In this document: positions 1,977 to 18,860 of the stretch, piece by piece
Position numbering within the stretch: the stretch's first letter is position 1
Layout of the letters: the number at the start of each line of letters is the position of its first letter
IMG/VR virus record: IMGVR_UViG_2700989508_000029
DNA length: 32,863 nt
Source of the DNA: a virus
Taxonomy: Duplodnaviria > Heunggongvirae > Uroviricota > Caudoviricetes
Direction: 5' to 3' (one strand)
Program-made: the position numbers and the translations under genes
Notes under the pieces: model-generated
Databases searched by the model: none
The model's input: the letters and a program-made list of their open reading frames with translations, nothing else
Told to the model about the DNA's origin: nothing

Positions 1977-1983
1977 ACGCAAT

Positions 1984-4648: not shown

Positions 4649-4852
4649 TTAATCATTTTTATCACCTTCTTTACTTAAGAAATGGTGTAGAGCCTGATCA
4701 ATACTCTCGTTTAATCTGAACATACGGGCTTTTACTCCTTCATATGGAACATCTAGGAGAGAACAGAGATATTTCAGATTTAACAAGCCTCTAGAATCAT
4801 TAGCATCTAAATGTACGTGTACACCATTTTTTGATTTCAAAATCACTTCCAT
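4649..4852 (-). CDS. Hypothetical small protein (67 aa) between capsid and tape-measure genes
   Basis: ORF with an SD (gagaggtgatt) upstream, in an operon with the TMP-like gene. No recognisable motif. Confidence 0.45.
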   Translation of the reverse strand: MEVILKSKNGVHVHLDANDSRGLLNLKYLCSLLDVPYEGVKARMFRLNESIDQALHHFLSKEGDKND

Positions 4853-4874
4853 ATTTTAATCACCTCTCAAAATT

Positions 4875-4918
4875 TAAAAAAATAAAAAAAAAGGCGAAGC
4901 GTGAATACACGCCACGCC
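4875..4918 (-). terminator. Strong rho-independent terminator/attenuator immediately after the major capsid gene
   Basis: On the minus strand, a GGCGTGGCGTG-TATT-CACGCTTCGCC hairpin is followed by a T9AT7 run. Confidence 0.65.
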
Positions 4919-4936
4919 TCTATTACACGTTAAATA

Positions 4937-5965: not shown

Positions 5966-5983
5966 TTATTATTATTCCTTTTA

Positions 5984-6346
5984 TTAAGAAGTGAAAACAG
6001 AATGGAACCCTTCAAGCTGGAAGCCTTTTTTAATTAATGCTGTTTTTGCTGCTTCACTTACAGCATTCAGCGCATCAGCTTTGATGCATACAAGCCCAGC
6101 ATTGCTACGTAAAACATCTACAGGTTTGTTTTCTCCAGCCGTTACAAATTCACTCATAACAACATAGATATCATCTCCTGATACATATTTAGCGCCAGTG
6201 CTGGTGATCAAGTCGCCGCATTCAACATCAGCAGGAAGAGAAGCAAAAACCTTGCTTTCTACAGAGGCAAACGGATCAGTACAATAACTTACAATATCTG
6301 TGAAAGTCTTTCGAACTGGAAACAGAGTGTCTAAATCAATAATCAT
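5984..6346 (-). CDS. Head decoration protein-like (lambda gpD-position), 120 aa
   Basis: The size and the position immediately upstream of the E-like capsid gene fit. Its ATG overlaps the stop of the upstream ORF (ATGA). Confidence 0.45.
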   Translation of the reverse strand: MIIDLDTLFPVRKTFTDIVSYCTDPFASVESKVFASLPADVECGDLITSTGAKYVSGDDIYVVMSEFVTAGENKPVDVLRSNAGLVCIKADALNAVSEAAKTALIKKGFQLEGFHSVFTS

Positions 6347-6555
6347 TTAGTAATCTCCTTAGCTTTTAATTTGATTAATTCATTAAGGGAAGGTGTAGAC
6401 GGAGAAGAAGGAGAAAAATATTTTTCAACACATCTTTCTACTTCTTCTACAGAACACCCAGCGTATTTAGCTACCATTTCGGTAATTTGTGGATTTATTT
6501 TCAGCATTTCATCTTTATACTTGATGATTTGCTCTTTATCATTTAAGAACAACAT
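6343..6555 (-). CDS. Hypothetical protein (70 aa), first gene of the structural operon
   Basis: Translationally coupled (ATGA) to the decoration-like gene. No motif recognised. Confidence 0.45.
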   Translation of the reverse strand: MLFLNDKEQIIKYKDEMLKINPQITEMVAKYAGCSVEEVERCVEKYFSPSSPSTPSLNELIKLKAKEITK

Positions 6556-6617
6556 TTATATAAACCTTGTTACCTTGTTTAAAGTAAGAAATACAACTTT
6601 TAAGTTGCATAACGGGC

Positions 6618-6649
6618 AAAATAAAAGGCAGCATTTAGAGCCGCCTTTT
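6618..6649 (-). terminator. Rho-independent terminator separating the early and structural operons
   Basis: On the minus strand, the GGCGGC-UCUAAAU-GCUGCC hairpin has a G-U pair that is valid only on that strand, followed by UUUUAUUUU. Confidence 0.55.
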
Positions 6650-6678
6650 ATTAACTTGTACCTATGTAATTACCCTAT

Positions 6679-6708
6679 GTTATGCATACTCCAAGATGTA
6701 TGCATAAC
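6679..6708. promoter_or_regulatory. Operator-like perfect inverted repeat GTTATGCATA-N10-TATGCATAAC upstream of the structural operon
   Basis: 10-bp perfect arms. A third half-site, TTGCATAAC, lies at 6605-6613, nearer the operon start. Confidence 0.45.
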
Positions 6709-6904
6709 AAAGGAAAAAAGAGGTAATAATGACACAGTATTTACTTAAGGAGGAGAAGCGGGGAGCGGAGATTTTACTCCCCTTTAACGACAAGAAGAAT
6801 TTTTAATATCGAACCAATAAAGGAAAAATAATCACCCCATATAATTATATTAACATATAATAGATGGAATGTCAAGATATTTTACAACTTTTTTGTTGCT
6901 TTTT

Positions 6905-7267
6905 TTATTCTTCTGTGATAGTGCCTAAGCGTTGAGCGAGTTCGACAAGTCCATCTCCCACATAGCGAACATCAGATTCGATATCTTCTATCCAGTTTGA
7001 TAGCTCCCATATCTGATCGGCTGTCAGGTATGCGTTTTCGCGCTTACAGAGCATCTCTACACGCTTAGAGAGGTGCTCAAAGGCATTCACAGCTAAATCC
7101 CAGTGTTTAAACGCCTCATTTAGTGACGCTGGTGTGTTTTCTTTGTATGCTTCAAGTTCAGCGCGGTTTAAAGGCAGAAGGTAATCATCCTCATAATAAT
7201 TAATTAGTGAGTAAATTGTGTCATACGTGTTTTTGTTCATATTAAAAGTCTCCATAGTGATCAGCAT
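6905..7267 (-). CDS. Hypothetical protein (up to 120 aa; likely start at 7240 or 7255)
   Basis: The ORF is adjacent to the upstream gene's stop at 7242-7244. A GGAGA SD precedes the ATG at 7240. Confidence 0.45.
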   Translation of the reverse strand: MLITMETFNMNKNTYDTIYSLINYYEDDYLLPLNRAELEAYKENTPASLNEAFKHWDLAVNAFEHLSKRVEMLCKRENAYLTADQIWELSNWIEDIESDVRYVGDGLVELAQRLGTITEE

Positions 7268-7652
7268 TATCTAGAATCTGGAAGTCTGGAACTAAGTTAT
7301 TTAGGCCATTTGTGGCGAGATAACCAACGTAGTGGTTATAGTCTTCAAATCCTAAAATCTGGTATTTGCGTAAATCAGAGCTATCAACGATATACTCTTT
7401 TCTTTTTCTAGGTTTCCAGAATACGCCAGGTGTTGAAGATAAGATTTCTTGTAAGGCGTTAAATTCATCTCCGCAAGGCACAGAGGGAGAATGTTCTATG
7501 ATCTCTGTTTTCCATTCGCCAGGGGCGCTATTTTGCTTGGTGAGCGTAACTAGCTCTTTAAAGTCTTTGCGTCTTAGAATAGATTTAGGTTTACTTAGAA
7601 GAGAAGCTGAATCCCCGATTTTCTTAACAACGTTGTTTTTTCTTTTTGCCAT
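7242..7652 (-). CDS. Hypothetical protein with basic N-terminus (136 aa)
   Basis: ATG at 7652 with an AAGGAAA SD. The N-terminus is MAKRKNNVVKK. No family recognised. Confidence 0.45.
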   Translation of the reverse strand: MAKRKNNVVKKIGDSASLLSKPKSILRRKDFKELVTLTKQNSAPGEWKTEIIEHSPSVPCGDEFNALQEILSSTPGVFWKPRKRKEYIVDSSDLRKYQILGFEDYNHYVGYLATNGLNNLVPDFQILDNADHYGDF

Positions 7653-7784
7653 TATTTACTTTTCCTTTTCTTTTAAAGGAAAACACCCCGAAGTATGTTT
7701 CTAACGTGAGAAAGAACAATAACCAATACATAGCTACTATCATAATAATGTTTTCCTTTTATATTTTAATTACATAGAGAGATT

Positions 7785-8063
7785 TTAGAGAGTGGAATAG
7801 ATGAATTCTATTTCTTTATCTAGTCTTTTGAGATTGAATGTAGAGAAAGATAATTCTTTAATTTCTATAACACCGAAGTTTGATAGCTGTTTCAGCCAGA
7901 ATTTTAAACCATCTTCAGAGCACCCTGCTCGATGTAACACATCGCTATATTTTAGCGGTGTTGGCTTTCCTTTATAGAGGTAAGCAAGTGTTTCGTAGAT
8001 GCGTTTTCCTGTGTCGTTACACTGAATTCTGTCTACTTGATTTTTTACTAAATATTGAATCAT
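7785..8063 (-). CDS. Small putative winged-helix DNA-binding protein (92 aa)
   Basis: A strong SD (AAGGAGGG) precedes the ATG at 8063. The sequence looks wHTH-like. Confidence 0.45.
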   Translation of the reverse strand: MIQYLVKNQVDRIQCNDTGKRIYETLAYLYKGKPTPLKYSDVLHRAGCSEDGLKFWLKQLSNFGVIEIKELSFSTFNLKRLDKEIEFIYSTL

Positions 8064-8074
8064 AACCCTCCTTA

Positions 8075-8767
8075 TTAAAATGGAATATCAAAGTCTTCGT
8101 ATACTTTGGGATGTTTCTTAGCAAAATATGCCTCAATACCATTTGGTAGCTTTAACCTGTGCTTATAGGCTAACGATGTTGCAAATTCTATAAATGATGC
8201 TCCTCCTGTTCTAGTATTCTTCTGCTTGATAATAAGAGAGGCAAAATTCTTTAACACATCCTCCTCATTATCATTAGCTACCTTTTCACTTGATGAAACA
8301 GGTGTTTCTTCCGTCTCCCACGGTAAAGGCGTATCCCAATCATCATCAAGAACATCAAAAGAAGGCTGTTTATGGCCTTTAGGTTGTTCCTGTGCTTCTT
8401 CTGCCTCAGAAAGATCAGAGAGTGATGATTCTCCTGGGGGAGTAATATGTGCATCTGTGAGAGGGAGAGCATTGTAAATCAAAGATGAAATATACGGATC
8501 AGGATGTGGGGATGTTTCTAATAATCCCATCTCTTTAAGATCGTTTATCTTACGTTTAATTGTTGACGCTGAAGACTTAAAAATCTTAGCTAATGTTTCG
8601 TGACTTTCATAACAATTAAGGTTGTTTTCCTGATAACTAAGGAATCGAAAATAAAGCACAATATGTAATAGATCTAAATCTTTTCCTTGAGGGAATTTAT
8701 CAGAATAAATCTTTGATACATTATCAAACGTGTCATAGTGTTTTGTAAAAGTTAGTTGGTTAATCAT
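8075..8767 (-). CDS. HTH replication-initiator-like protein ending in an SSB C-terminal-tip-like motif (230 aa from MINQL)
   Basis: AAGGAG SD 7 nt before the ATG at 8767. The N-terminal wHTH-like segment is ESHETLAKIFKSSASTIKRKINDLKEMGLLE. An acidic linker follows, and the C-terminus YEDFDIPF resembles the E. coli SSB tip DFDDDIPF. Confidence 0.5.
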   Translation of the reverse strand: MINQLTFTKHYDTFDNVSKIYSDKFPQGKDLDLLHIVLYFRFLSYQENNLNCYESHETLAKIFKSSASTIKRKINDLKEMGLLETSPHPDPYISSLIYNALPLTDAHITPPGESSLSDLSEAEEAQEQPKGHKQPSFDVLDDDWDTPLPWETEETPVSSSEKVANDNEEDVLKNFASLIIKQKNTRTGGASFIEFATSLAYKHRLKLPNGIEAYFAKKHPKVYEDFDIPF

Positions 8768-8820
8768 TAAAAATCTCCTTGATGTAATCACGCTCTATGG
8801 CGCTACTATGGTGATAAAAA

Positions 8821-8991
8821 TCACTTGCTTTTATTTGAGAGTGTTTCAGCCTCTCTTTTCAACATATCAAGAATGTAATCTGTGACAGTGATCCGTCTAC
8901 TTCTGGCTTCTTTAAATAACACCTGAAATACTTCATCAGGAATATGAAAGCAAGTGCGTGGTTGTCTTTTCTTTTCTGTAGTTTCGCTCAT
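8821..8991 (-). CDS. Ribbon-helix-helix (CopG/Arc-like) protein (56 aa from MSETT)
   Basis: AAGGAG SD before the ATG at 8991. RTCFHIPDEVFQVLFKEARSRRITVTDYILDML fits a beta-alpha-alpha RHH pattern. Confidence 0.5.
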   Translation of the reverse strand: MSETTEKKRQPRTCFHIPDEVFQVLFKEARSRRITVTDYILDMLKREAETLSNKSK

Positions 8992-9010
8992 AGTTTTCTC
9001 CTTCTCTTCT

Positions 9011-9199
9011 TTACTCTGTTTCAGATTCTTTTTCATTTTTTCTTAGTTCATCAATAATCTTGAGTGCTTCATTGAAGCAAGCTGCTCGCTCTGGATAACC
9101 TCGACTCCTTGCCATATTACGATTCATTACTACTTGGTGGCGTGTAAGCTCACCTTTTTTAAATGCCTGGACGACGTGCTCAGGTGTAAACCATTTCAT
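9011..9199 (-). CDS. Hypothetical small protein (62 aa), first gene of the early operon
   Basis: AAGGAG SD before the ATG at 9199. Confidence 0.45.
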   Translation of the reverse strand: MKWFTPEHVVQAFKKGELTRHQVVMNRNMARSRGYPERAACFNEALKIIDELRKNEKESETE

Positions 9200-9310
9200 A
9201 AAAAACTCCTTATTCAGTTAAAAGAAAAAACACCTTGCAAGCCTGACGGCTTCAAAGTGCATTGATTTTGATTATTTAGAGAAGAATGTTTTTCTGTCCC
9301 TCTAATACCT

Positions 9311-9339
9311 ATTATTACATATAAAGAAACATTTGTCAA
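9311..9339 (-). promoter_or_regulatory. Candidate sigma70 early promoter of the AT-rich element
   Basis: On the minus strand, TTGACA-N16/17-TAATAAT lies about 110 nt upstream of the first early ORF. Confidence 0.4.
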
Positions 9340-9855
9340 TACCTTTTCATAAAAAATCTGATCTTTTTCATGCACTTACATTTTTTCTTAGCAATTCGTG
9401 CTCTCCTATGTAGTGCTATTCTTCCTTATTGTCTAAAACGCTCTAAAACGCGTTCTAACGAGATTTTGATAAAAGCAATACATTCCCTTATCTAATGGCT
9501 GTTTAGCTCGCCAGAGGCTTATTTAAGTGGCTTATTTTGTATTTGTTAGATGATGATAGATATAAAACAGAGAGTCACTTTATAAAACGCTCTGTAAAGC
9601 CCTGTAGTGAGTTTATTATATGTAGGCAATGCGTTTCCATTCCCTACCCTGCTTAATGTTGTTAGAGAAGCATTTAGACCCCTTATTTTTAATTACCTAA
9701 AGTATCCTCTATACATCTCTGTTATGAAACACCTCTGAATCCTTCATAAAACACATTATGACGCAAAGAACACTTTTCTAAGGTGATTCCCTTCCTGAAT
9801 GCTGTTTCTTGCGTCAGAGAGCTACACAGAGCTTATAAAGATATTATTAATAATA

Positions 9856-9917
9856 AAGTAGATAAAGTAAGTAAGATAAGTAAGTAAGATAACTAAGATA
9901 GATAAGATTAATAAGAT
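9856..9917. repeat. Degenerate TAAGATA/TAAGTAAG tandem microrepeat
   Basis: gataaagtaagtaagataagtaagtaagataactaagatagataagattaataagat. Confidence 0.6.
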
Positions 9918-9961
9918 CAGAATTCTCTTTCGGTGTCGCCTCTGGCTTTTCCACCGAAAAC

Positions 9962-10228
9962 AATTACACGACTACAGAATGTAGGAAGTGAAATTGTATT
10001 GAGGCTTAGTGAAATTACACGAGGAAAGCAGAGTGTAATTGAGCTTTAGCCGCTCTCTTCGAGTAATTACACAACTACAGAGAATAACGAGAGTTATTAA
10101 ATGTAGGAAGTGGAATTAAGAGGTAGAGAGTTACACATAAGCAATCAGTATGATTGGTTAGGTGATTACTCTTCTGCGCACAGCGCAATAGTATTTCTTC
10201 GTGGGCGTTACCGCCACGATAGTTACAC
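9962..10228. repeat. Cluster of (A)ATTACAC sites (about 6 copies, one inverted)
   Basis: AATTACAC occurs at 9962, 10013 and 10065, and GTGTAATT (inverted) at 10033. TTACAC/GTTACAC occur at 10131 and 10222. The larger unit AATTACACnACTACAGA...TGTAGGAAGTGnAATT is repeated at 9962-9994 and 10065-10118. Confidence 0.6.
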
Positions 10229-10350
10229 GAAGAAAGTAACGCTTTGCTTTCGGTGTGAGCGGAACGGGCCAGCCACGAAGCCCGAAAGGTAGCGGAGTAA
10301 GGCTGCTTGCCAGAGAGTGAAGCTAACGCCGGAAGGCAAAAGATCATATA

Positions 10351-10501
10351 TATATAGTATAAAGAATATTATTATGATCTAATTAATAATCTAATATAGT
10401 TTTATTAATAGTCTTATTGTAGTTCACAGTGACCTACCCCCTAGCTCACTATGACCTACCCCCTAGGTCACAGTGACCTATATAGTATAAAGAATATTAT
10501 T
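10351..10501. repeat. 23-bp perfect direct repeats flanking TGACCTACCCCCTAG repeats and a 15-bp palindrome
   Basis: TATATAGTATAAAGAATATTATT occurs at 10351-10373 and 10479-10501. TGACCTACCCCCTAG occurs at 10430-10444 and 10452-10466. The palindrome AGGTCAC-A-GTGACCT lies at 10465-10479. Confidence 0.7.
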
Positions 10502-10526
10502 TATATTATTTAATTATAGTATTGGT

Positions 10527-10626
10527 GGAACTCATTTCCTAGGTAGGTAGGAACTCATTTCCTAAGTAGGTAGGAAACCACTTCCTAGGTTACTTCCTAA
10601 ATAGATCGGAAATCATTTCCTAGGTG
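10527..10626. repeat. Iteron array: 4-5 copies of GGAAnnCAyTTCCTArGT (internal GGAA-N5-TTCC dyad), ~23-bp period
   Basis: Copies start at 10527, 10550, 10573 and 10608, with a partial copy at about 10593. Confidence 0.7.
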
Positions 10627-10641
10627 TTATTTATTCTTATC

Positions 10642-10700
10642 GGGTATCAGTTTTGATAGGGGTATCAGACTTGATAGGGGTAACAGAATTCTGTGGGGGT
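10642..10700. repeat. Iteron array: 3 copies of GGGGTAwCAGnnTTGATA, 18-bp period
   Basis: Copies at 10642-10658, 10659-10676 and 10677-10694, then a GGGGGTAG partial copy. Confidence 0.65.
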
Positions 10701-10866
10701 AGTTCACTATGACCTACCCCTAGCTCACTGTGAGCTACCGTTACATTCAATCATCTTCCGATGTGTAATATCGTTACATTCAATAATTAGTCTATGTAAC
10801 ATATCGTTACTACCAACTTTCTTACAAAGAGCATTTCAGATAGCTGAATGTAACCTCTCGTTACAT
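10701..10866. repeat. Third TGACCTACCCCTAG copy, AGCTCAC-T-GTGAGCT palindrome, and CGTTACAT/ATGTAAC sites
   Basis: TGACCTACCCCTAG is at 10710-10723 and the palindrome at 10722-10736. CGTTACATTCAAT occurs at 10739 and 10772. ATGTAAC occurs at 10794 and 10848, and CGTTAC(AT) at 10805 and 10859. Confidence 0.6.
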
Positions 10867-11669
10867 CCATTTGTCACATAGCACTCTGTGTAATGCCTTT
10901 CTATGTGTGTGCCATAATCCCCCCTATATTCCCTGTGTAAATCATAGAATATCCCTAACTTATTCCTGTGTAATTCCATACTAAAAATTCAATGAAAAAA
11001 GTAGCTTAAAAGTTCAATTCTTACTTTCTTCACTTTTACATCACTTTCGCAAATCCTTGTGTAATGCGGCTTACAGAGCACCATCAGAAATTGTTGGCTA
11101 AAAATTGTTCTGCTTGTTTCTTAATGAGTTTTCTTGTTTGTGCAAATTTTAAAATTTATTTTGTTTTTACAGCCTTATTTCGTGTAATGCGTGGCATAGC
11201 AAGCCCTTTTCTTGTGTTGTCAAGACATTTGGCAACGTTCAAACATCTGTTTAGAAATGCCAAATTGTTGATCTAACAAATAAACCTGTATAAACAGAAC
11301 ACCATTTAATCTATTCCCCTGTGTAATCCACTACATCACACGATAAAAACAAAAAACTTTTAATTATATTTCATAGCACACAAAAGTCAACAGAAGCCCT
11401 CTCGTGCTCCTACGTAAAAAATCCATCACTTTTCCCCTGATACATCAACTCAAGGCGTTCTATGTGTTCCTTAGTGCATATTACGATTATTATGTTAAAT
11501 GGATTTTGGCCTATATTTTGACCTGCACCCGCATAAACACTGGTTTCATCGCTTACAGCCCTTGTGAGACGTGGTGCTGTTTCTAGCATCTGATCCGACA
11601 TAAAACCGATCATTCTCGTGTTTAGTGAAAGTTTAGTGAGAGACATTACAGAAAGGCTTTCTGTGTAAT
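10762..11669. repeat. Dispersed (C)TGTGTAAT sites (at least 8 copies), inverse orientation of the 9962-10228 ATTACAC cluster
   Basis: Copies at 10762, 10886, 10933, 10966, 11058, 11182, 11319 and 11661. One reversed copy (ACTACACAGG, next to GTTACAT) lies at about 12331-12347. Confidence 0.6.
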
Positions 11670-12137
11670 GATTTAATAGGTAAAAACGATGTTGATTACG
11701 CAAGAAAATTCCTTGCTGATATTTGGGGATTCTGGATTTTCCAGATCGGGGGGCGCTGAAAATCGCGTTAAGCACTTCTCGCAATCTAGCCATAAGGGAA
11801 GGGATATAGGTATTTAGATGTATTTATAGCTAATTTATAGCTATTTATTTTTTATTTACCTTTATTAAAAATAACCTTATAAATCAATAAGATACATAAT
11901 TATCTGTTTATATTCTAATCAATTAAATCAAGTTTAATACCCTTAAATAACCTGAAAATAGCCTTAAATACCCCAATAATTAATTTTAAGGTTTTCCGTG
12001 TTCTCTTCTGCATTATGAAAATGCAAAATAAGGCACAAAACAAGCTCACATACGCATTAAACACACATCACCTATACATCCCTATGCCAAGCAATGAAAA
12101 CAGCGTTAGAATGCGTCCTGTTGCGTTCTGGAGATTT

Positions 12138-12296
12138 TCAGAAATCCTCTCTAAGCCATTTCAACTCACTAAGGAGTTTTCTTTCTTCGTTCTCTCGTTG
12201 CTTTCGCTCTAGCCAGGCTTTTCCCTCTGGCGTAGACAGGAACTTACGAGCGTGAATCTTGCGGTTATTACGTTTGATAGCTGCAATGTTTTTCAT
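12138..12296 (-). CDS. Unlisted small basic ORF (52 aa, MKNIAAIKRNNRKIHARKFLSTPEGKAWLERKQRENEERKLLSELKWLREDF)
   Basis: I translated this by hand. It has an ATG with an AGAGG SD about 8 nt upstream, and GTTACAT / CTGTGTAGT-type sites lie just upstream. It is below the 60-aa threshold of the ORF track. Confidence 0.35.
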   Translation of the reverse strand: MKNIAAIKRNNRKIHARKFLSTPEGKAWLERKQRENEERKLLSELKWLREDF

Positions 12297-12479
12297 CGTG
12301 TGCCTCTGTATTCATATGAAAATTAACAAGTTACATACTACACAGGGAGACTACGCATAAAACACAATACAAGTAAAGATACATTTTCAAGACAATAGGA
12401 GCCATAAAGCGCCTTTGATGGTTATACCAAAAAATAAGCGCCGTAGGCGTATCCACTAAAAAGGGCTTTTTCACAAAAG

Positions 12480-12842
12480 CTATGAAGTCTTAGCAGTTCT
12501 TCTCTTATCAGGCACCCGTTGTACTCCGGTGGACGAAACCGTGCTAGAGCTTGATTCTTTCCCGATCAAGTTAGGTTTTGAAGAGGTGGGCTTTAATCCA
12601 CTATGCACTTAAAACTCTTCCCATCATTTAGCCTGTTTATCCTCTGCAACGTCTCACGACGTGTAGCATCATTGGACACCGCGCCAGGTGTGGAACATCT
12701 TGCTAAGAGTTTTGGTAGAAGGTTTAGAGACGGTGGCACGTCTTCCAGCTTCAAAGGAACTTGTTACGAGGTTGAGCCTGGGAACTACTCGCCCATACGT
12801 GTTACACTACCAAAGCCCATAACAACGTATAGGCGTTTGTAA
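12480..12842 (+). ncRNA. Candidate structured non-coding RNA (hairpin cluster) next to the inter-element att
   Basis: A locally GC-enriched block in AT-rich DNA holds seven consecutive hairpins: 12548-12572, 12581-12620, 12649-12662, 12676-12691, 12727-12744, 12745-12781 and 12790-12836. Three G-T appositions (12549/12571, 12727/12744, 12750/12776) are wobble-compatible only on the + strand. Confidence 0.35.
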
Positions 12843-12898
12843 GTGATAACAGAAGATACAATTTCTTAGAGAAGTTAAGCTAAGTTATTGATTTTCTT

Positions 12899-12916
12899 AA
12901 TGGTGCGATAATAGGA
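12899..12916. repeat. Degenerate internal att copy (junction between the two elements)
   Basis: AATGGTG-CGATAATAGGA differs from AATGGTGCCGATAATAGGA by a 1-nt deletion. Its flanks (TTGATTTT.. / ..AAAACA) also resemble those of the 536-556 copy. Confidence 0.6.
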
Positions 12917-12978
12917 ACAAAACAAACAATAAAAATACATTGATATATAAAGACATTTTCCCATTACATCTTTGTAGA

Positions 12979-12998
12979 TACCCCCAAAAGTACCCCCA
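12979..12998. promoter_or_regulatory. Putative integrase arm-type sites (TACCCCCAAAAGTACCCCCA), distal arm of the P4-like element
   Basis: 19/20 identical to 31287-31306 beside the integrase gene, in the same orientation, with the same 12-bp spacing of the TACCCCCA octamers. Confidence 0.5.
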
Positions 12999-13257
12999 AA
13001 CAATTTTCTCTCACCACCATTTGCACATAAAGCAGCCATGTACAACTGGTAGTTGAACAGGCGGGTAGACCGTTCGTTCAGTAAATACCTGATATTTCCG
13101 CCAACGAGAAATTGCGTTGGCTGGCAGAGTGCAAATTTGCACGATAACCTAACCCATTGATTCTTTCGAAAACCCGCAATGCAGGAAGCCGGATAACACC
13201 ATTTTATAGCTCCGATCCCTTCAAAGTGAGGGGTAATTTGCCAAAACAGAGAGAGCA

Positions 13258-13545
13258 TTACTGTCTCTGGCAATCTTTATCGCGATAACGCCTGAAGTAC
13301 CCTCTCGCTTCCTCATCCATACCAAGAGCCGAATGAGTCCGCTTAACTGCCTGTCTTAAATCTCCGAATCTGTCTGTAGTTGCTGGTGGGCGTGCCGCCT
13401 TACGGATACATTCAGAGCGTCTGTTTGCTGCATGTTCACGTTCTTTATCGCCATCTGCCAGCATCATGACTTCTGCCCATCGTGCGGCAGCTCTCCGGTA
13501 TAGCCCTTTTGACTCCAGCTCTTCAGCTTTCCTGTCCTTTATCAT
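13258..13545 (-). CDS. PerC/Pch-family transcriptional regulator-like protein (95 aa)
   Basis: AEELESKGLYRRAAARWAEVM...REHAANRRSEC matches the PerC-family N-terminal pattern I recall (..LE..G.YRRAA.RW..V..). Confidence 0.65.
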   Translation of the reverse strand: MIKDRKAEELESKGLYRRAAARWAEVMMLADGDKEREHAANRRSECIRKAARPPATTDRFGDLRQAVKRTHSALGMDEEARGYFRRYRDKDCQRQ

Positions 13546-13578
13546 TTCTGCCTCTCAGATTATATAGATAAGCAAAAA

Positions 13579-13705
13579 GGTGTTGGTTCAGTTGGTTCAG
13601 TTGGTTCAATTTGTAAAGAGCGTTGTTTTTATTGTGTTTTTTCTAAAATATTGAACCAACATCAACTCATTTTGAACCAACACAGCCCAGCTCTGAACCA
13701 ACAAC
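13579..13705. repeat. Iteron module A (ori/crr-like): 3 tandem GTTGGTTCA, an AT-rich spacer, then 3 TGAACCAAC
   Basis: GTTGGTTCA is at 13582, 13591 and 13600. TGAACCAAC is at 13652, 13673 and 13694. The module is an inverted homolog of 22036-22153. Confidence 0.7.
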
Positions 13706-13755
13706 ACAGCGATAGATTTGCGATTGGTCCGTTATTTTCTGGCTGATATTTGAGC

Positions 13756-13790
13756 GTATAACAGTGTTATACAGTGGTATACTGTATGGA
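13756..13790. promoter_or_regulatory. Operator-like overlapping dyads (GTATAAC-AGT-GTTATAC; ATACAGT-GGTAT-ACTGTAT) upstream of the RHH gene
   Basis: Perfect 7-bp arms at 13756-13772 and 13769-13787. Confidence 0.4.
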
Positions 13791-13804
13791 TATTACTCAC
13801 TGAT

Positions 13805-14245
13805 ATGGTCTTTGCAATGAGCAAATCTAATCTGATCGCGTTCCGCATCCCATCTGAATTGCAGGATGAGTTTAATCGGTCTGTTCTCGCTTCTGGAGGG
13901 GATAAAACCTCCTGGCTTGTTGATGCGATTCGCATGAAGCTGGGACAGCCGGAAAAGTCTATTGATTCACGAATGCTTGGGCTGGTGGAGCGCATGGAAA
14001 AAGCCGCAGCATCGCTTATTGCCGGAAAGCCGAACATCCCACCAAAGCCATATAACGAAACGGCAGTTATAAAGATCATTGCCGATACCATCCGACAGGG
14101 ATTTGATAATGGGCGTGTGATAGCTGAACGGCTCAATGAAGCAGGCTACCAAACAAAAGCTGGTAAAGCGTGGGATAAAGACATTTACAGCGCGTGGAAG
14201 CGTCAGGATAACAATATTAAAAGAATCAATACGCTGCTTCAGTAA
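13805..14245 (+). CDS. RHH-domain DNA-binding protein with a C-terminal recombinase-like helical domain (146 aa; possibly starts at 13817)
   Basis: NLIAFRIPSELQDEFNRSVLASGGDKTSWLVDAIRMKL fits an RHH pattern. The C-terminal AERLNEAGYQTKAGKAWDKDIY resembles the recombinase-domain LN..G..T..G..W motif. Confidence 0.5.
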   Translation: MVFAMSKSNLIAFRIPSELQDEFNRSVLASGGDKTSWLVDAIRMKLGQPEKSIDSRMLGLVERMEKAAASLIAGKPNIPPKPYNETAVIKIIADTIRQGFDNGRVIAERLNEAGYQTKAGKAWDKDIYSAWKRQDNNIKRINTLLQ

Positions 14246-14274
14246 TTGATCAGTGTATAAATGATATTTATCGC

Positions 14275-15252
14275 TCAATCGCTCCCTTTCCGCCCTTCAG
14301 CTACAGGGTCGTTGTCGGCGATAACAAAACCTAAGTCCTGAGAGAATCTCTCTCGTGGGAATCCTTTAGCAGGTAAACCCATTGAATCATATCCACATCC
14401 GGGAACATTTGGTTTAGAGTCAATAAGGTCTGCAATTTGCCGAAGCCATGTTGATCCCGGACCAAGTCGTTTAACTAAGTACCAGATAATACAGATCGCG
14501 CTAAAAATCCTCTCGCAACTCTCTGGATGGAGATTAAGTCCGTCAAAGTATTCATTATCCGGTACTGGAACTCGGGGATGCTTTCTATTCCATATTCTGG
14601 AATGGTGAGCGCAACGATTCCTTATGAGATTAAGGCACTTCAACCATTTTGCAAATGTCTGCTTATTATCAATGCCAAAACGACGTATAATTTTCCCCTG
14701 CATATGACCATTAAGCATCGCATAATATTTAGACATCTGACCAAAATCCCAGGTCTCCACCGCCACCCAAAATGGAATCTCCTTGCCTTGGCTTCGATGC
14801 CATTCAATACAGTCATCTCTGCTTTCGTCTAATTTTACTTTTTGCTTATACACCCAATGCTCGAAGGCAGATGAGAATTTTGGATTAATGTATTTTGATG
14901 ACATGTAGGCAAGTGGATCATTGCGACCAACCTCATGCGCGATGACTGAACGAACATGAATCTCTATTCTTTCGATAGCATCAATCATCAAAAGACGCAG
15001 TTTTTTGTCAAAAAGATATAGATCGTACGTCTTCTCGAAACTGGTACCAGTAAGAAATCGGTCTGTTCTGTACGAAAGACCTTTATCTGTTGTCGCAATA
15101 ATTCTTGATGGGTACCAAAAACCTGACAATCGATAATATCCAACCTGCGACAGCTTACGTATCGCACGATTTCGATCATTGATAATCATGCCACGTTCAA
15201 GTAGCAATCCTAGCAATTCGTGATAGTCCTTATGAGGCTTTGCGGCAATCAT
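14275..15252 (-). CDS. Abi_2 family (AbiD/AbiF-like) abortive-infection protein
   Basis: Family hallmarks are present: YYRLSGFWYP, ERIEIHVRSVIAHE and LNLIRNRCAHHSRIWNR. The likely start is MIAAKPHKDY at 15252; the track ORF extends to 15297. Confidence 0.85.
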   Translation of the reverse strand: MIAAKPHKDYHELLGLLLERGMIINDRNRAIRKLSQVGYYRLSGFWYPSRIIATTDKGLSYRTDRFLTGTSFEKTYDLYLFDKKLRLLMIDAIERIEIHVRSVIAHEVGRNDPLAYMSSKYINPKFSSAFEHWVYKQKVKLDESRDDCIEWHRSQGKEIPFWVAVETWDFGQMSKYYAMLNGHMQGKIIRRFGIDNKQTFAKWLKCLNLIRNRCAHHSRIWNRKHPRVPVPDNEYFDGLNLHPESCERIFSAICIIWYLVKRLGPGSTWLRQIADLIDSKPNVPGCGYDSMGLPAKGFPRERFSQDLGFVIADNDPVAEGRKGSD

Positions 15253-15422
15253 AGTGGCGAAACAAAAGATAATAAAAGGCCCGACCGTGAAACTCACATG
15301 CCTGAAATCGGCGGCGGAGAAACAGAGGATCGGGCTCGGTTGCCTGTAACTCTATCCGAAGTTATCCACATGTCAATGCACAGTTACTTAGGAAACTAAC
15401 ATAGGTACTATCATCACTCACG

Positions 15423-15445
15423 AAAAACCACTATATGTGGTTTTT
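15423..15445. terminator. Bidirectional hairpin terminator AAAAACCAC-TATAT-GTGGTTTTT
   Basis: 9-bp perfect stem with built-in A/T tracts on both sides. Confidence 0.5.
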
Positions 15446-15725
15446 ATTCATATCGTTATCCACTACAGGCTGTGTCAATAACTTTTACCTATTAATTGGG
15501 TAATTTCTACATTTTCCTATGCTGGCTAGTTTCTCTACTGAAAAGTTGGCACTCCTTAATCGCTTTTCGGTTAATACTATCGGTCTTCATATTGCCAGCA
15601 GCATACGCCATCCGATAATTTCGATGCTACGCGCGCGTACTTGTCGCAAAATATCAGGCAAAGGCCAGATTCAGAACGTCGTGATAACCACCAGCACAAC
15701 ATGAGATGTCATGTAACACGATTTA

Positions 15726-16104
15726 TCACATCAGATACATGTGATTGGTGTACCCGCATAAAACATCGTCATAGCGCGTCCTGTGCGCATATACGCCGAT
15801 AATCAACACATCACCACCACTCTGTCTCGTGTAGAGAACAGTTTCATGGTATCCCCCGCCATCGTGTGCGTACTGGTCGGACGTAGTTGCAAAATTTTTG
15901 CAACTGATACCCCTCGCGCGCGTACTGGTCACGAAATTGGTGTTTTGCTGTGGCAGTGATATCAGAAAAATCTTCCTGTTTCACATAAAGCGGATATGCG
16001 CGTACTGTAACGGCCCCATCAACGGGGATCGGATTTGAAATCCCGACCCAAGCTATGTACCAAATGCCATGTCTTGGATATATGATGATTGCCATTCTAA
16101 ACAA
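15726..16104 (-). pseudogene. Frameshifted small gene, possibly a RelE/ParE-like toxin remnant
   Basis: Two overlapping minus-strand ORFs in different frames (15844-16104 and 15726-15932). The C-terminal piece ...YHETVLYTRQSGGDVLIIGVYAHRTRY resembles the RelE/ParE C-terminal beta-strand/His-Arg pattern. The family assignment is weak. Confidence 0.3.
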
Positions 16105-16121
16105 CGCTAAAGGGGGTTGGT

Positions 16122-16736
16122 GTGAGCAGAAAAGATACTAAAGAATTGCTAACTATCTGCATGGTGTACTTTTCAATTTATTTTTGTGCATACATGATAG
16201 TCCCAGATGAGTTTGAACATGGCAGTATTATTTATTCCATAACATTCTATTTTTTAGAGCTAACACCAATTTTGGCTATCCTTTTGGCAATACATATTTA
16301 TTTTTCCTTAAAAAAAGAATCGACTAATTGGGAGAAGGTATGGAGAGACAGAGGATTTCTAACATCACCTAAAGATGATGCATATGAGAGTGATTTTTCT
16401 GACTTTATAACAAACTACTACTCCAGCGAACAATTCAAAAATAGACTGTCTGATGTTTGGGAAACAGCAATGTATTCCATAGGGATTATATTATTGATAC
16501 TTACTGGTATTGCTCAATATGTTTTTAACATTGACTTATCATTAAATCCTGAAAATTTAATATCGCCATTGATTTTTGGTGAGATATTGATCTTCTCATT
16601 CGGAATTTTCTTGAGTGTTGTTCTCTGCTCATTATGCAAACTACTGACTAACAGGTATCCAGGTGAAGCAAGGAGAGCAAGAAAGGCAAATCCATATTAT
16701 CTTTTATTTCCTAATGGAGACAGCAGAGATATCTAA
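16122..16736 (+). CDS. AT-rich 4-TM membrane protein (204 aa) at the position SieA occupies in P22
   Basis: GTG start with a strong SD (AAGGGGG). There are four hydrophobic helices. The gene converges on the end of the gp16-like gene. Confidence 0.6.
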   Translation: MSRKDTKELLTICMVYFSIYFCAYMIVPDEFEHGSIIYSITFYFLELTPILAILLAIHIYFSLKKESTNWEKVWRDRGFLTSPKDDAYESDFSDFITNYYSSEQFKNRLSDVWETAMYSIGIILLILTGIAQYVFNIDLSLNPENLISPLIFGEILIFSFGIFLSVVLCSLCKLLTNRYPGEARRARKANPYYLLFPNGDSRDI

Positions 16737-16754
16737 GCCATCCATGGCTACCAG

Positions 16755-18860
16755 TTATTGAGCTTCTTTTTGTGATGCCTGTGCGACTCTGGTGAGCGAT
16801 TGTGTGACCGTACTGATCGCTCTGTCATATGCTGTGCTACCTTTTGGCGTATTTGCCAAACGTAACAAGGCATTTCGTATAACAGGGCTTTCGTATGCCT
16901 TCGCGGCTCCGCCTACGGCACCAGCAGCAGGAACAACAAACGCAGCCGTTTTTAGCATCCCCGCTAATACTGCTGCGTTTATGATGCCACCACCAACTAA
17001 CAATCCATAAAGCTGCTGACCATTTAAGTTTTGAACGTTCGCTTTTGCCGCGTGTCTTGTATCGTTGAGGTATTTAATAACGCCGTCCAGTTCCTTTCCA
17101 TGTACGCCTTTAAAGAAAGTTGCTGATTGCTTCCTGTTCCGGTGTAACGCATTAATAAACTTCTCAACACTGATATTTCCAGACGGATCAGTCGCCTTAT
17201 CTACAGCATTCTGAACTATGGCTGCTCGTGCGTTTTGCCTACCATTGTCATCCAGAAGCCTGTAAAGCTGAGAACGTTCTGATGGGCTTTGGCTAAAAAC
17301 GAGTTTTGTTACATCCTCAGGCGTGGCCTTGCCGCTGGCTATTGCCTTTTGAACGCGCGTTCTTCCCATCATGTCATTGAATTTAGACCATGAGCGATCA
17401 ACCCTTGCCATATTAATGGCTTCGTCTGCTCCAAGATTTTTGGCTACGGCTTTTTTCATATCCGCCGTATATGCCTTGTAGATAATATCGCTGGCTTTCT
17501 GGAGCGTATCTTTATCAACAGTGTCAGATGACGCCATAAACCGCTTTCGAAGATCGGTTCTGTTTTCCCTCGCCAGACGCAGGTCATTTGGTCCGCTGGT
17601 GATATCGTCTTTAAATTGCTGCAAGACTTTTACCGCGGCTCTATCCTGAGATTTACCCGGGCGGCTTAACACAGCAATCTGATTGTCGATAGCTTTTACC
17701 GTGTTTGAGAGATCGACAGGGGTATCCCCCATAGCGTCAATTATGCGGTTATATCGCTTTCCTGCTGCCTCAATGAATTTTTGTTGCCCTTTAGTCGCAG
17801 ATTCATAAAGCTGTTTATCAGAAATGCCACCCAGACCATCGCTAAATGTTCTGACTAAATTTTCTCGTGCTTGTTGTTGATTCAGCCGATTCTTACCGGT
17901 TCCAAAAAAAGGAACTCTTTCGCCTAATGTCTGAGCCTGACTCTGCATAAAGGTTTTATCTTTCAGCATGTCACTGGTCATTAACGGCAGATTTCTTTCC
18001 GATGCAAAGTCGACAGCAGCCTTTGCTTCAGGCGACATATCACCACGAACAGCCCTCGAAACCGCACTCGCTGTATTTTCCAGCCCCTTACCAATACCAC
18101 CAATGCCAGCAGAAATTACCGTTTGTAACGGATCAATATCTTCTCCACCAGCAAGGCTAGTGGCTCCCTGTAGTGCTAAATCTGTAGCTGCTGATTTTCC
18201 TATGGCACCAAGCACCGTTCCAGCCCTGCCCGCTGGTGTAAACGCCAGCGCATTAGCCAGAAACGATGCCACGTCTTGCGGCGATAAACCCGGCTTGTTC
18301 AGAGCATAATCACCGGATGGCAGGGAAACGATAGTGTTACCCTTCTCATCCTGCCTTAATTTCGCTCCCATGCTCTGAAGAATCTTTTCCTGAGATGCGT
18401 CAGAGCCGAAAAGTTGAGACCATCGAGCTTTTAGAGCATCCATGCTGAGTGAGGTTAACTCTGGGGCAAGGTCGACATTTTGCAGTCTCTCCATCTCTGG
18501 AGTCATTCGGCTTTCGCCTGTTATAGCATCGCGCATCGCAGCCCCAAGACTGGCTCCCTGTTCTGCTGAACGCTCAAGCCCCTCTCTTTGCTGAGTAGCT
18601 AACTTTGCATACCCTGACGCAAGAGAATTATCAGATGATGTATGTTGAATATTTTGAGTTGCTGATTGGGATCGGTCTATTTCATTCGTTGATGGTAGTG
18701 GATAGGCAGCATAAAAAGCCTGCTTAGCCTGCTCTACACTTTCTCCGGCTTGCGGGGCCACGACTTCATTGAAGTATTGCTCCTGAGCCTGCGCTTTTTG
18801 TTCTGGTGCTAACGCCTGATACTGTGGAGAGGCGATAACATCTTTCCATGCTTTAGCCAT
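16755..18860 (-). CDS. P22 gp16-like DNA ejection/transfer protein (701 aa)
   Basis: It is the third gene of a 225/473/701-aa series, which parallels P22 gp7/gp20/gp16 (about 229/471/609 aa) in order. Its ATG overlaps the upstream stop (TAATG). The N-terminus MAKAWKDVIASPQYQALAPEQKAQAQEQYF is typical of podovirus internal/ejection proteins. Confidence 0.6.
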   Translation of the reverse strand: MAKAWKDVIASPQYQALAPEQKAQAQEQYFNEVVAPQAGESVEQAKQAFYAAYPLPSTNEIDRSQSATQNIQHTSSDNSLASGYAKLATQQREGLERSAEQGASLGAAMRDAITGESRMTPEMERLQNVDLAPELTSLSMDALKARWSQLFGSDASQEKILQSMGAKLRQDEKGNTIVSLPSGDYALNKPGLSPQDVASFLANALAFTPAGRAGTVLGAIGKSAATDLALQGATSLAGGEDIDPLQTVISAGIGGIGKGLENTASAVSRAVRGDMSPEAKAAVDFASERNLPLMTSDMLKDKTFMQSQAQTLGERVPFFGTGKNRLNQQQARENLVRTFSDGLGGISDKQLYESATKGQQKFIEAAGKRYNRIIDAMGDTPVDLSNTVKAIDNQIAVLSRPGKSQDRAAVKVLQQFKDDITSGPNDLRLARENRTDLRKRFMASSDTVDKDTLQKASDIIYKAYTADMKKAVAKNLGADEAINMARVDRSWSKFNDMMGRTRVQKAIASGKATPEDVTKLVFSQSPSERSQLYRLLDDNGRQNARAAIVQNAVDKATDPSGNISVEKFINALHRNRKQSATFFKGVHGKELDGVIKYLNDTRHAAKANVQNLNGQQLYGLLVGGGIINAAVLAGMLKTAAFVVPAAGAVGGAAKAYESPVIRNALLRLANTPKGSTAYDRAISTVTQSLTRVAQASQKEAQ

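What the first reader, a model, noticed from the sequence alone, without database searches (positions are those of the whole stretch)
12480..12842. GC-enriched cluster of seven hairpins: candidate novel structured RNA abutting the att junction
In otherwise AT-rich DNA, about 360 nt become GC-richer and resolve into consecutive well-formed helices. Examples are AGCTTGAT-N9-ATCAAGTT (12548-12572), GAAGAG/GTGG...CCAC/CTCTTC (12581-12620), ACGTC-TCAC-GACGT (12649-12662) and ACACC-GCGCCA-GGTGT (12676-12691). Others are GAGACG-GTGGCA-CGTCTT (12727-12744), CCAG-C-TTCAA...TTGAG-C-CTGG (12745-12781) and CGCCCATACGT-N25-ACGTATAGGCG (12790-12836), the last followed by TTTGT. Three G-T appositions are tolerable as G-U only on the + strand, which suggests + strand transcription. 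After excision and circularisation this RNA would sit immediately upstream of attP and the + strand integrase gene. It could therefore be a circular-form-specific leader or regulator of int, or a stand-alone satellite RNA. The overlapping 79-aa ORF (12603-12842) has no SD and an implausible composition.
Basis: seen in the sequence. Interest (0 to 1): 0.65.

Follow-up and report, generated by a model that had tools for sequence, protein, structure and literature searches.

The report
New structured RNA at satellite end
The hairpin cluster is real and is part of a roughly 460-base, pseudoknotted, non-coding RNA-like element that ends a widespread family of capsid-carrying integrative elements in E. 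coli and relatives, matches no known RNA family, and has no known function or settled strand.

Summary
All seven hairpins are in the sequence, within 1 nt of the stated coordinates. On the single sequence they fold no better than shuffles (z +0.12 on the + strand, -0.94 on the - strand). Homologues settle it. I found about 160 loci in more than 12 genera of Enterobacterales and in gut metagenomes, and the window-type sequence is in about 10% of complete E. coli genomes. These loci show compensatory base changes in five of the seven hairpins and one both-sided change in a sixth. The element is larger than reported, about 12385-12845. It is non-coding and matches nothing in Rfam 15. It always lies 60-110 bp from the tRNA-derived att core, at the end away from the integrase gene. 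The carrier is an uncharacterised satellite-like element with capsid, tail and Rep genes. The left two-thirds is conserved in all members. The right third changes with the att/integrase type. G.U-type and A.C-type mismatches are balanced. GNRA tetraloops at five or more hairpin positions, the sharp left boundary and the lack of any conserved upstream promoter favour the - strand, which runs in the same direction as the tRNA. Folding energies are split between strands. The int-leader idea is therefore doubtful. Function is unknown.

The parts
12385..12845 (.). Whole conserved structured element. The strand is unresolved, with the - strand slightly favoured.
   Evidence: Conservation starts sharply about 11-16 nt left of 12395 and fades after helix vii. 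Covariance model R1, built from distant homologues, hits 12385-12614 at 34.2 bits, E = 8e-11.
12385..12413 (.). Left-boundary block, (GACA)ATAGGAGCCATAAAGCGCC. On the - strand it reads as a weak terminator-like hairpin followed by UAUUGUCU.
   Evidence: Used as a probe, it found about 30 true loci in IMG/VR and about 29 species of Enterobacterales. It is flagged as - strand terminator-like in L022. The tail has 4-6 T in 8 bases in most representatives.
12416..12421 (.). P1 5' arm, TGATGG. It pairs with 12621-12626, is long-range and crosses P2, so it forms a pseudoknot.
   Evidence: In the main type, UAGUGGUA/UACCACUA alternates with UGGUGAUA/UAUCACCA: two fully covarying pairs, 97% paired. 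In the window type there is one A-U to U-A swap and 100% pairing.
12621..12626 (.). P1 3' arm, CCATCA.
12438..12450 (.). Pa hairpin, GCGCC-GTA-GGCGT.
   Evidence: Present in all types. In the main type the two middle pairs are replaced by a tandem G.A/A.G.
12465..12480 (.). Pb hairpin, GCTTTT-TCAC-AAAAGC. The loop is GUGA (GNRA) on the - strand.
   Evidence: Five of six pairs change on both sides. The loop is TCAC or TCGC in all window-type sequences.
12488..12503 (.). P2 5' arms, TCTTAGCA (12488-95) and TCTTCT (12498-503). They pair with 12701-08 and 12692-97.
   Evidence: P2a has three both-sided changes. P2b has three compensatory changes in L190. The main-type equivalent GATCACAC/GTGTGATC changes to CTAGCTAA/TTAGTTAG.
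12692..12708 (.). P2 3' arms, GGAACA and TGCTAAGA.
12509..12541 (.). H-type pseudoknot. H5 is ACCC 12514-17 with GGAC 12531-34. H6 is CGGT 12527-30 with ACCG 12538-41. It is preceded by the conserved TTATCAGG, whose CAGG (12509-12) pairs with CCTG 12632-35.
   Evidence: H5 has three covarying pairs in the main type (GCUC/GAGC, AACC/GGCU, GCCC/GGGC) and GAUC/GAUC in the XYEH type. H6 and CAGG/CCTG are invariant or nearly so.
12549..12571 (.).
   Evidence: Three pairs change on both sides, 98.8% paired.
12580..12620 (.).
   Evidence: Cleanly absent in 10 of 12 window-type homologues. Present in L006. There is no covariation evidence for it.
12649..12662 (.). Hairpin iii, ACGTC-TCAC-GACGT. The loop is GUGA on the - strand.
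   Evidence: Two pairs change on both sides (ACGUC/GACGU to ACCUU/AAGGU), 100% paired.
12676..12691 (.). Hairpin iv, ACACC-GCGCCA-GGTGT.
   Evidence: Two pairs change on both sides.
12727..12744 (.). Hairpin v, GAGACG-GTGGCA-CGTCTT.
   Evidence: Two pairs change on both sides. The loop NUGGCA is conserved across att types.
12745..12781 (.). Helix vi, CCAG-C-TTCAA ... TTGAG-C-CTGG.
   Evidence: 98% paired with one both-sided change. XYEH-type homologues insert a covarying hairpin here whose loop is an invariant TTTC (GAAA on the - strand).
12790..12835 (.). Helix vii, CGCCCATACGT ... ACGTATAGGCG.
   Evidence: Three pairs change on both sides. The sequence tracks the att type.
12901..12918 (.). 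att core, a copy of the tRNA-Thr 3' end. It joins element 1 to the P4-like element 2.
   Evidence: The same core is at 539-556 and 31421-31438. In strain E2865, element 1 abuts tRNA-Thr directly.

Best explanation
The finding is the right three-quarters of a roughly 460-nt conserved, non-coding, multi-helix and pseudoknotted element. It is best read as the gene for a previously undescribed structured RNA.

**Where it sits.** It is a fixed terminal module of a family of about 12-kb integrative, satellite-like elements. These carry an integrase, a lambda-gpE-type capsid gene, tape-measure-like and Dit-like tail genes, a Rep-like gene and iterons. They insert into the 3' ends of tRNA-Thr, tRNA-Leu and tRNA-Gly genes in Enterobacterales. 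The module always sits at the end next to the intact tRNA gene and away from int.

**Two parts.**
- The left two-thirds is a universal core containing P1, Pa, P2, the H5/H6 pseudoknot, P4 and the CCUGUUUA region.
- The att-proximal third (helices v-vii) is inherited together with the att/int module.

**Working model (inferred, not shown).** The RNA is read on the - strand, in the same direction as the tRNA gene. Transcription starts in the att-proximal spacer or comes from tRNA read-through. It runs inward and ends at the sharply conserved left-boundary block. The product acts as a free structured RNA in the element's life cycle rather than as a leader of int.

**What is shown.** Conservation, covariation, lack of coding capacity, position and modularity.

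**What is inferred.** Transcription, strand and function.

**How sure.** About 0.85 that this is a conserved structured RNA of a new family on one strand or the other. About 0.6 that the strand is -. The stated confidence of 0.55 is for the whole statement.
For: **Homologues and spread.**
- About 160 loci were recovered.
- The window-type sequence occurs in 564 of 5,426 complete E. coli genomes.
- Genera include Enterobacter, Kluyvera, Cedecea, Raoultella, Citrobacter, Serratia, Rahnella, Pantoea, Erwinia, Buttiauxella, Dryocola and Pseudenterobacter.

**Covariation.**
- Main type, 20 sequences: 89.3% paired against 83.6% in shuffles. 22 pairs change on both sides against 7.6 in shuffles (0/500). 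Slid controls reach at most 42% pairing and at most 9 such pairs.
- Window type, 12 sequences: 91.4% against 85.5%, and 23 against 11.6 (0/500). Slid controls reach at most 41% and at most 3.
- RNAalifold independently recovers Pb, P2, H6, P4, iii, iv, v, vi and vii.

**Homology of the window to the distant set.** A covariance model built without the window sequence finds it at E = 8e-11.

**Not coding.** The longest open frames differ in strand, frame and position between homologues.

**Not a known RNA.** There is no Rfam match even at E <= 10.

**Position.** The element is always 60-110 bp from the tRNA-derived core.

**Link to the satellite family.** An MCP homologue lies upstream in 18 of the 28 loci that hold enough upstream DNA.

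**For the - strand.**
- GNRA tetraloops on stems of at least 4 bp number 31 on the - strand and 7 on the + strand.
- They occur at five or more hairpin positions, and loop variants stay within GNRA: GUGA/GCGA, GAAA/GCAA/GUAA and GAAA/GUAA.
- Internal A.C cells on the + strand in H5, P2, P5 and vii become G.U on the - strand.
- Sequence upstream of the left boundary is unrelated between elements.
- The left block is terminator-like on the - strand.
- The Thr main type carries a - strand TTAAGA-N18-TAYAAT motif.
- RNAalifold gives -100.0 kcal/mol on the - strand and -92.9 on the + strand for the window type.
Against: **No transcript data.** Transcription on either strand is not shown.

**The single sequence is not unusually stable**. 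Mean z over 32 homologues is only -1.3 on the + strand and -0.9 on the - strand.

**Evidence for the + strand.**
- MFE is lower on the + strand in 25 of 32 homologues.
- RNAalifold gives -91.3 on the + strand and -81.1 on the - strand for the main-type core.
- A tandem sheared-type G.A/A.G in Pa reads that way only on the + strand.
- U.G wobbles in helix vi and P5 would be C.A mismatches on the - strand.

**Balanced mismatches.** Roughly equal G.U-type and A.C-type cells are unusual for a one-strand RNA.

**Promoters.** No sigma-70-like promoter is conserved across att types on either strand.

**Independence.** The window-type alignment holds only about 4-5 independent lineages, and its structure was partly derived from the window sequence.
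Confidence: 0.55

Rival explanations
1. A + strand RNA is transcribed toward the att end. After excision and circularisation it becomes a structured leader or regulator of the + strand integrase gene, or an attenuator ending at helix vii plus TTTGT.
For: - The + strand points toward attP and int.
- The att-proximal third changes together with the att/int type.
- MFE is lower on the + strand in 25 of 32 homologues.
- RNAalifold favours the + strand for the main-type core.
- The tandem G.A in Pa and several U.G wobbles fit the + strand.
- Helix vii is followed by a T-run of 3-4 in the window, XYEH and most Leu types.
- An outward promoter that drives int only in the circular form has a precedent in ICEclc (from my own knowledge, not checked here).
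Against: - No promoter is conserved upstream. The flanking DNA is unrelated cargo in different elements.
- Five or more hairpins carry loops that are GNRA only on the other strand.
- The Thr main type has no T-run after helix vii.
- About 290 nt, including the att core, separate helix vii from the int ATG at 700.
- The same core serves elements with different integrases and tRNA targets.
Confidence: 0.2
2. The element works as DNA rather than RNA. It could be part of the attP arm (Int, Xis or IHF sites), a packaging (cos/pac) signal, or a single-stranded-DNA structure used in replication or recombination.
For: - It is adjacent to the att core.
- The right third tracks the integrase type.
- G.T-type and A.C-type mismatches are about equally frequent, as expected if neither RNA strand is privileged.
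- The element encodes no terminase, so it needs a packaging site somewhere.
Against: - Long-range compensatory helices spanning 140-210 nt and two pseudoknots cannot form in duplex DNA.
- Loop sequences are conserved while stems covary.
- The core is shared by elements with different integrases.
- There is no similarity to any phage genome, so no shared cos region was found.
- These elements carry dsDNA-phage capsid and tail genes.
Confidence: 0.1
3. The region is protein-coding (the 79-aa ORF at 12603-12842 or the 53-aa ORF at 12593-12754 on the - strand), or it is simply a chance cluster of hairpins.
For: - Both ORFs exist.
- The single-sequence folding energy equals that of shuffles.
Against: - No frame stays open across homologues. 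A 42-nt deletion and other indels that are not multiples of three occur.
- Covariation is far above the shuffled and slid controls.
Confidence: 0.02

Closest known systems
ROOL and GOLLD RNAs, large ornate structured RNAs of prophages that are often next to tRNA genes (from my own knowledge)
   Same: - A large (>400 nt), multi-helix, pseudoknotted non-coding RNA.
- Carried by phage-related mobile DNA.
- Found next to a tRNA gene.
- No known function.
   Different: - No match to any Rfam model.
- Different hosts: Enterobacterales rather than Firmicutes and others.
- Here the tRNA is the host att target, not a phage tRNA array.
- Here the RNA is a fixed terminal module of an integrative satellite-like element.
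P4 CI RNA / C4 antisense RNA and isrK, small immunity RNAs of satellites and P1/P7-type phages
   Same: A non-coding RNA encoded by a phage satellite. Element 2 of this window carries real copies at 27354-27441 and 27504-27581.
   Different: - Those RNAs are 70-90 nt, with known targets in the same transcript.
- They match Rfam RF01695 and RF01394.
- The element studied here is about 460 nt, unrelated in sequence, and sits at the att-proximal end of a different element.
Junction-dependent expression of recombinase genes in circular intermediates, such as the Pcirc promoter of ICEclc and IS junction promoters (from my own knowledge)
   Same: An element end that faces the recombinase gene only after circularisation.
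   Different: - Those are short promoters, not 460-nt structured modules.
- No promoter is conserved here.
- The strand evidence leans the other way.
IS110/IS1111 bridge (seek) RNAs (from my own knowledge)
   Same: A structured non-coding RNA encoded in a non-coding end of a mobile element, next to the recombination site.
   Different: - The recombinase here is a tyrosine integrase (Pfam Phage_integrase), not a DEDD enzyme.
- There is no complementarity to the att core above chance.
tRNA 3' external transcribed spacer RNAs, such as 3'ETS-leuZ (from my own knowledge)
   Same: If the - strand model is right, this would be a functional RNA lying just downstream of a tRNA gene, in the same direction and possibly released from a tRNA co-transcript.
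   Different: - Those are short, unstructured sponge RNAs of host origin.
- This one is long, highly structured and brought in by a mobile element.
- Co-transcription is not shown.

Membership tests
Any Rfam 15 family (4,227 models, including ROOL, GOLLD, OLE, HEARO, riboswitches, ribozymes, RNase P, tmRNA and 6S) | A match to the family covariance model at or near its gathering score. | tested here: not met
   At gathering thresholds over the whole window, the only hits are C4, isrK and tRNA elsewhere. In E-value mode up to 10 over 9300-13300, only three chance-level snoRNA hits of 18 bits or less appear, none credible.
C4 antisense RNA / isrK (satellite and P1-type immunity RNAs) | A match to RF01695 or RF01394, and a position upstream of the regulated operon. 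| tested here: not met
   Matches occur only at 27354-27581 in element 2 and none in 12385-12845.
Intrinsically structured RNA (generic test) | Compensatory base changes in the proposed helices, above controls. | tested here: met
   0 of 500 shuffles reach the observed pairing, both-sided changes or covariation score. Slid controls give 30-42% pairing.
Intrinsically structured RNA (generic test) | Folding energy below that of shuffled sequence. | tested here: inconclusive
   Window z is +0.12 on the + strand and -0.94 on the - strand. Over 32 homologues, mean z is -1.3 and -0.9.
Intrinsically structured RNA (generic test) | A detectable transcript with defined ends and strand. | not testable with these tools
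   No expression data are available. Promoter and terminator scans are inconsistent.
Bridge / seek RNA of IS110-family elements | An adjacent DEDD (RuvC-like) recombinase, and loops complementary to the target and donor sites. | tested here: not met
   The integrase is a Pfam Phage_integrase with a SAM-like domain. The longest match to the att core is 5-9 nt, against a shuffle mean of about 7.
attP arm of a tyrosine integrase (DNA-level site) | Lies within about 150-250 bp of the core, is specific to the integrase type, and contains repeated arm-type sites. | tested here: inconclusive
   The right third (helices v-vii, 65-175 bp from the core) is specific to the att type. The core two-thirds is shared between Thr, Leu and Gly types and so is not integrase-specific. 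Arm-site repeats were not identified.
Protein-coding gene | An open frame conserved in homologues. | tested here: not met
   and the indels seen.

The most novel reading that the evidence does not exclude
The element is a new class of large, pseudoknotted RNA that is an obligatory module of a so far undescribed family of capsid- and tail-gene-carrying phage satellites. Its expression or fold would report whether the element is integrated behind a tRNA promoter or excised. Both strands may be transcribed in different states, which would explain the strand-symmetric wobble pattern. Through a ribonucleoprotein it would control excision, replication or hijacking of the helper phage.
Probability: 0.2. 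Interest if true: 0.85.

Novelty: categorically new. Interest (0 to 1): 0.72.

Why it matters
Large, conserved structured RNAs with long-range helices and pseudoknots are rare. Almost none have been found in E. coli since the classical ones. This one is present in about a tenth of complete E. coli genomes, including EHEC O26 and APEC strains, and in many other Enterobacterales, yet every RefSeq record inspected leaves it unannotated. It marks a family of capsid-encoding integrative elements that also appears uncharacterised. Because it occurs in a genetically tractable host, its function could be tested directly, which has not been possible for comparable orphan RNAs such as ROOL and GOLLD. 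In practical terms, its left-boundary block and core motifs are good sequence tags for finding these elements.

Tried and rejected
- **Rfam.** Searches at gathering thresholds and at E <= 10 found nothing.
- **Shared DNA with phages or plasmids.** blastn against 50,697 phage records gave no match, so no shared cos or pac region was found. Against plasmids there were only two E. coli records carrying the same island.
- **Single-sequence folding z-scores.** They were uninformative.
- **Coding hypothesis.** Rejected.
- **RNA-guide hypothesis.** Complementarity to the att core or tRNA is at chance level.
- **Automatic strand-neutral structure prediction.** My own Nussinov-style script was too noisy, so I replaced it with curated helices.
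- **Strand from wobble counts.**
  - G.U-type against A.C-type counts are balanced once the invariant G.U pairs at helix ends, or next to an internal loop, are set aside.
  - SNPs among near-identical copies are too few to help.
  - The composition of unpaired positions gives opposite signs in the two alignments.
- **Strand from RNAalifold energies.** The two sub-families disagree.
- **Promoter and terminator scans.** A decent - strand promoter appears only in the Thr main type. No promoter is conserved across types.
- **Literature.** Three full-text searches found no description of this RNA or of the element family.
- **Serine-recombinase remnant.** I looked for one in the window and found none.

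Full report
**Context**

The window is E. coli chromosome (100% identical to O26 strain RM10386) around thrW, proA and proB. Copies of the tRNA-Thr 3' end, TGGTGC(C)GATAATAGGA, lie at 539-556, 12901-12918 and 31421-31438. The intact tRNA-Thr(CGU) gene is at 31420-31495 on the - strand. Two integrative elements therefore sit in tandem.

- Element 2 (about 12919-31420) is P4-like. It has a TOPRIM/DUF927 primase, C4 antisense RNA at 27354-27441, isrK at 27504-27581, and an integrase next to the tRNA.
- Element 1 (557-12900) carries the finding at its right end. Its genes are:
  - a tyrosine integrase at its left end (ATG at 700, + strand);
  - a Dit-like protein, a tape-measure-like protein and a lambda-gpE-type major capsid protein;
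  - a Rep-like protein;
  - iterons at 10416-10740.
- In strain E2865 the same element abuts tRNA-Thr directly. The finding therefore lies at the tRNA-proximal, integrase-distal end.

**The observation**

All seven hairpins are in the sequence, within 1 nt of the stated coordinates. GC is 0.457, against 0.26-0.40 to the left and 0.38 to the right. As a single sequence the region folds no better than dinucleotide shuffles: z is +0.12 on the + strand and -0.94 on the - strand. Rfam gives nothing at gathering thresholds or at E <= 10. On this evidence alone the cluster could be chance.

**Homologues**

- blastn finds the region in 564 of 5,426 complete E. coli genomes. It is never annotated.
- Diverged copies lie next to tRNA-Thr, tRNA-Leu and tRNA-Gly.
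- A first three-way alignment already showed compensatory changes and a clean deletion of the second hairpin.
- The conserved left-boundary block ATAGRAGCCATAAAGCNCC, used as a probe, found about 30 true loci in IMG/VR and about 29 species of Enterobacterales.
- A second probe, TACTCCGGTGNNCGAAACCGTG, found 36 viral and 83 metagenome loci, mostly from the human gut. These gave 60 unique window-type sequences with 64-100% identity.

Conservation begins abruptly 11-16 nt left of 12395. Further left the DNA is unrelated cargo in different elements. To the right, every copy is followed within 60-110 bp by a tRNA 3' fragment. The left two-thirds is shared by all members. The right third, homologous to helices v-vii, falls into types that go with the att site. 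No reading frame is conserved. An MCP homologue of 23-98% identity lies upstream in 18 of the 28 loci that hold enough upstream DNA. The module therefore belongs to one family of capsid-carrying elements.

**Structure**

Curated helices were tested with the count of structure pairs on MAFFT alignments.

| Alignment | Sequences | Cells paired (shuffles) | Pairs changed on both sides (shuffles) | Slid controls |
|---|---|---|---|---|
| Main-type core (A3) | 20 | 89.3% (83.6%) | 22 (7.6; 0/500) | at most 42% paired, at most 9 pairs |
| Window type (A4) | 12 | 91.4% (85.5%) | 23 (11.6; 0/500) | at most 41% paired, at most 3 pairs |

- P4, iii, iv, v and vii each have 2-3 pairs that change on both sides.
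- vi has one such pair.
- The 12580-12620 hairpin is a lineage-specific insertion with no covariation data.

- Long-range helix P1 (12416-21 / 12621-26), with two perfectly covarying pairs in the main type.
- Long-range helix P2 (12488-95 / 12701-08 and 12498-503 / 12692-97), which crosses P1.
- An H-type pseudoknot, H5 12514-17 / 12531-34 with H6 12527-30 / 12538-41.
- Pairing of the conserved motifs CAGG (12509-12) and CCTG (12632-35).

RNAalifold independently recovers most of the nested helices on either strand. A covariance model built only from distant main-type sequences detects the window copy at 34.2 bits, E = 8e-11. Caveats: the window-type alignment holds few independent lineages, and its structure was partly derived from the window sequence.

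**Strand**

Those pairs are invariant and lie at helix ends or next to the internal loop of helix vi. The evidence is split.

| Evidence | Favours |
|---|---|
| G.U-type and A.C-type cells about equally frequent in covarying helices; internal A.C on the + strand in H5, P2, P5 and vii; internal U.G on the + strand in P3, P5 and vi | neither |
| Lower MFE in 25 of 32 homologues | + |
| RNAalifold -91.3 (+) against -81.1 (-) for the main-type core | + |
| Tandem G.A/A.G in Pa | + |
| GNRA tetraloops on stems of at least 4 bp: 31 against 7 | - |
| GNRA loops at five or more hairpin positions, with variants that stay within GNRA: Pb GUGA/GCGA, iii GUGA, pseudoknot mini-hairpin GAAA/GCAA/GUAA, vi insert GAAA, Thr type GUAA/GAAA | - |
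| RNAalifold -100.0 (-) against -92.9 (+) for the window type | - |
| Sharp left boundary that reads as a weak terminator on the - strand | - |
| No conserved sequence where a + strand promoter should be | - |
| TTAAGA-N18-TAYAAT promoter-like site on the - strand in the Thr main type | - |

No promoter is conserved across att types on either strand. My estimates are about 0.6 for the - strand, about 0.25-0.3 for the + strand, and the remainder for both strands or a DNA-level role.

**Mechanism**

- Shown: this is a conserved, non-coding, elaborately folded module at a fixed position in a mobile-element family. Its core is independent of the integrase and att type, and its att-proximal third is linked to them.
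- Inferred: it is transcribed, probably in the same direction as the tRNA gene immediately upstream. Transcription would start at a promoter in the spacer or come from tRNA read-through, since no convincing terminator follows the tRNA. It would end at the left block and act as a free structured RNA.
About 290 nt, including attP, lie between helix vii and the int ATG. I give it about 0.2.
- A guide-RNA role is not supported, because complementarity to the att core is at chance.
- A purely DNA-level role (attP arm, packaging site) cannot explain helices that covary over 140-210 nt or the pseudoknots. It could still apply to the right third.

**Comparison with known systems**

The closest in kind are the orphan large RNAs ROOL and GOLLD, which are phage-associated, lie near tRNAs and have no known function. 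There is no model match. Satellite immunity RNAs (C4, isrK) are present elsewhere in the window but are unrelated. Three full-text literature searches found no description of this RNA or of the element family.

**Verdict**

- The interpretation as a novel structured RNA is supported.
- The strand and the int-leader role are not supported.
- I rate it as a new RNA family of unknown function in a well-studied, tractable host: high interest, with the mechanism open.

Noticed in passing
window 557-12900: Element 1 is an uncharacterised integrative, satellite-like element of about 12.3 kb at thrW. It carries an integrase, a Dit-like protein, a tape-measure-like protein, a gpE-type capsid protein and a Rep-like protein. 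No terminase or portal was recognised. Its MCP is at most 27% identical to MCPs of roughly 95-kb virulent myoviruses, which may point to the helper clade.
   Followed up: partly
window 9400-12100: A stretch of about 2.7 kb has almost no annotated genes. It holds iteron arrays: 22 bp x5 at 10416-10482 and 10696-10739, 23 bp x3 at 10536-10625, and 18 bp x2 at 10642-10677. It also has repeated TGTGTAAT and GTTACA motifs. This is probably the replication origin. The RM10386 copy differs here by a 22-24-nt indel.
   Followed up: partly
window 21574-21632 (+): A weak covariance-model hit (10.1 bits, E about 0.009) matches only the left-boundary block, AAATAGCCATAACGCCCCCTTAG. It lies in an intergenic region of the P4-like element 2. 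It could be chance or a shared short motif.
   Followed up: no
window 27354-27441 and 27504-27581 (-): Bona fide C4 antisense RNA (79.5 bits) and isrK (67.1 bits) lie in the P4-like element 2.
   Followed up: no
L003 6634-7194, L005 3304-3864, L004 3852-4403, L006 4528-5067: Related elements carry a small tyrosine recombinase (186 aa) or a serine recombinase or invertase (about 180 aa) 1-2.4 kb left of the structured element. This hints at an invertible or shufflable cargo segment. The window copy has no such gene or remnant.
   Followed up: partly
window 12138-12296 (-): A 52-aa ORF (WP_000788777) is the only annotated gene between the iterons and the att end. It lies just downstream, on the - strand, of the structured element. 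A - strand transcript could run into it.
   Followed up: no
L022 3720-3770, also L023, L053 and L109: Some main-type homologues carry an extra 49-nt insertion, GGCCAACCTGGTTGGTTTCGCTTTGCGAAAGTCACCAGTGACC, between Pa and P2. It consists of two or three small hairpins. This is another sign of modular expansion segments.
   Followed up: no
L006, L048 and L060, just left of the tRNA-Gly core: Gly-type elements have a strong hairpin next to the att core, GAGAAGAC-TTTTTTA-GTCTTCTC in L006, with a diverged and only partly complementary version in L048 and L060. Its role is unclear. It could be a terminator or an Int/Xis site.
   Followed up: no
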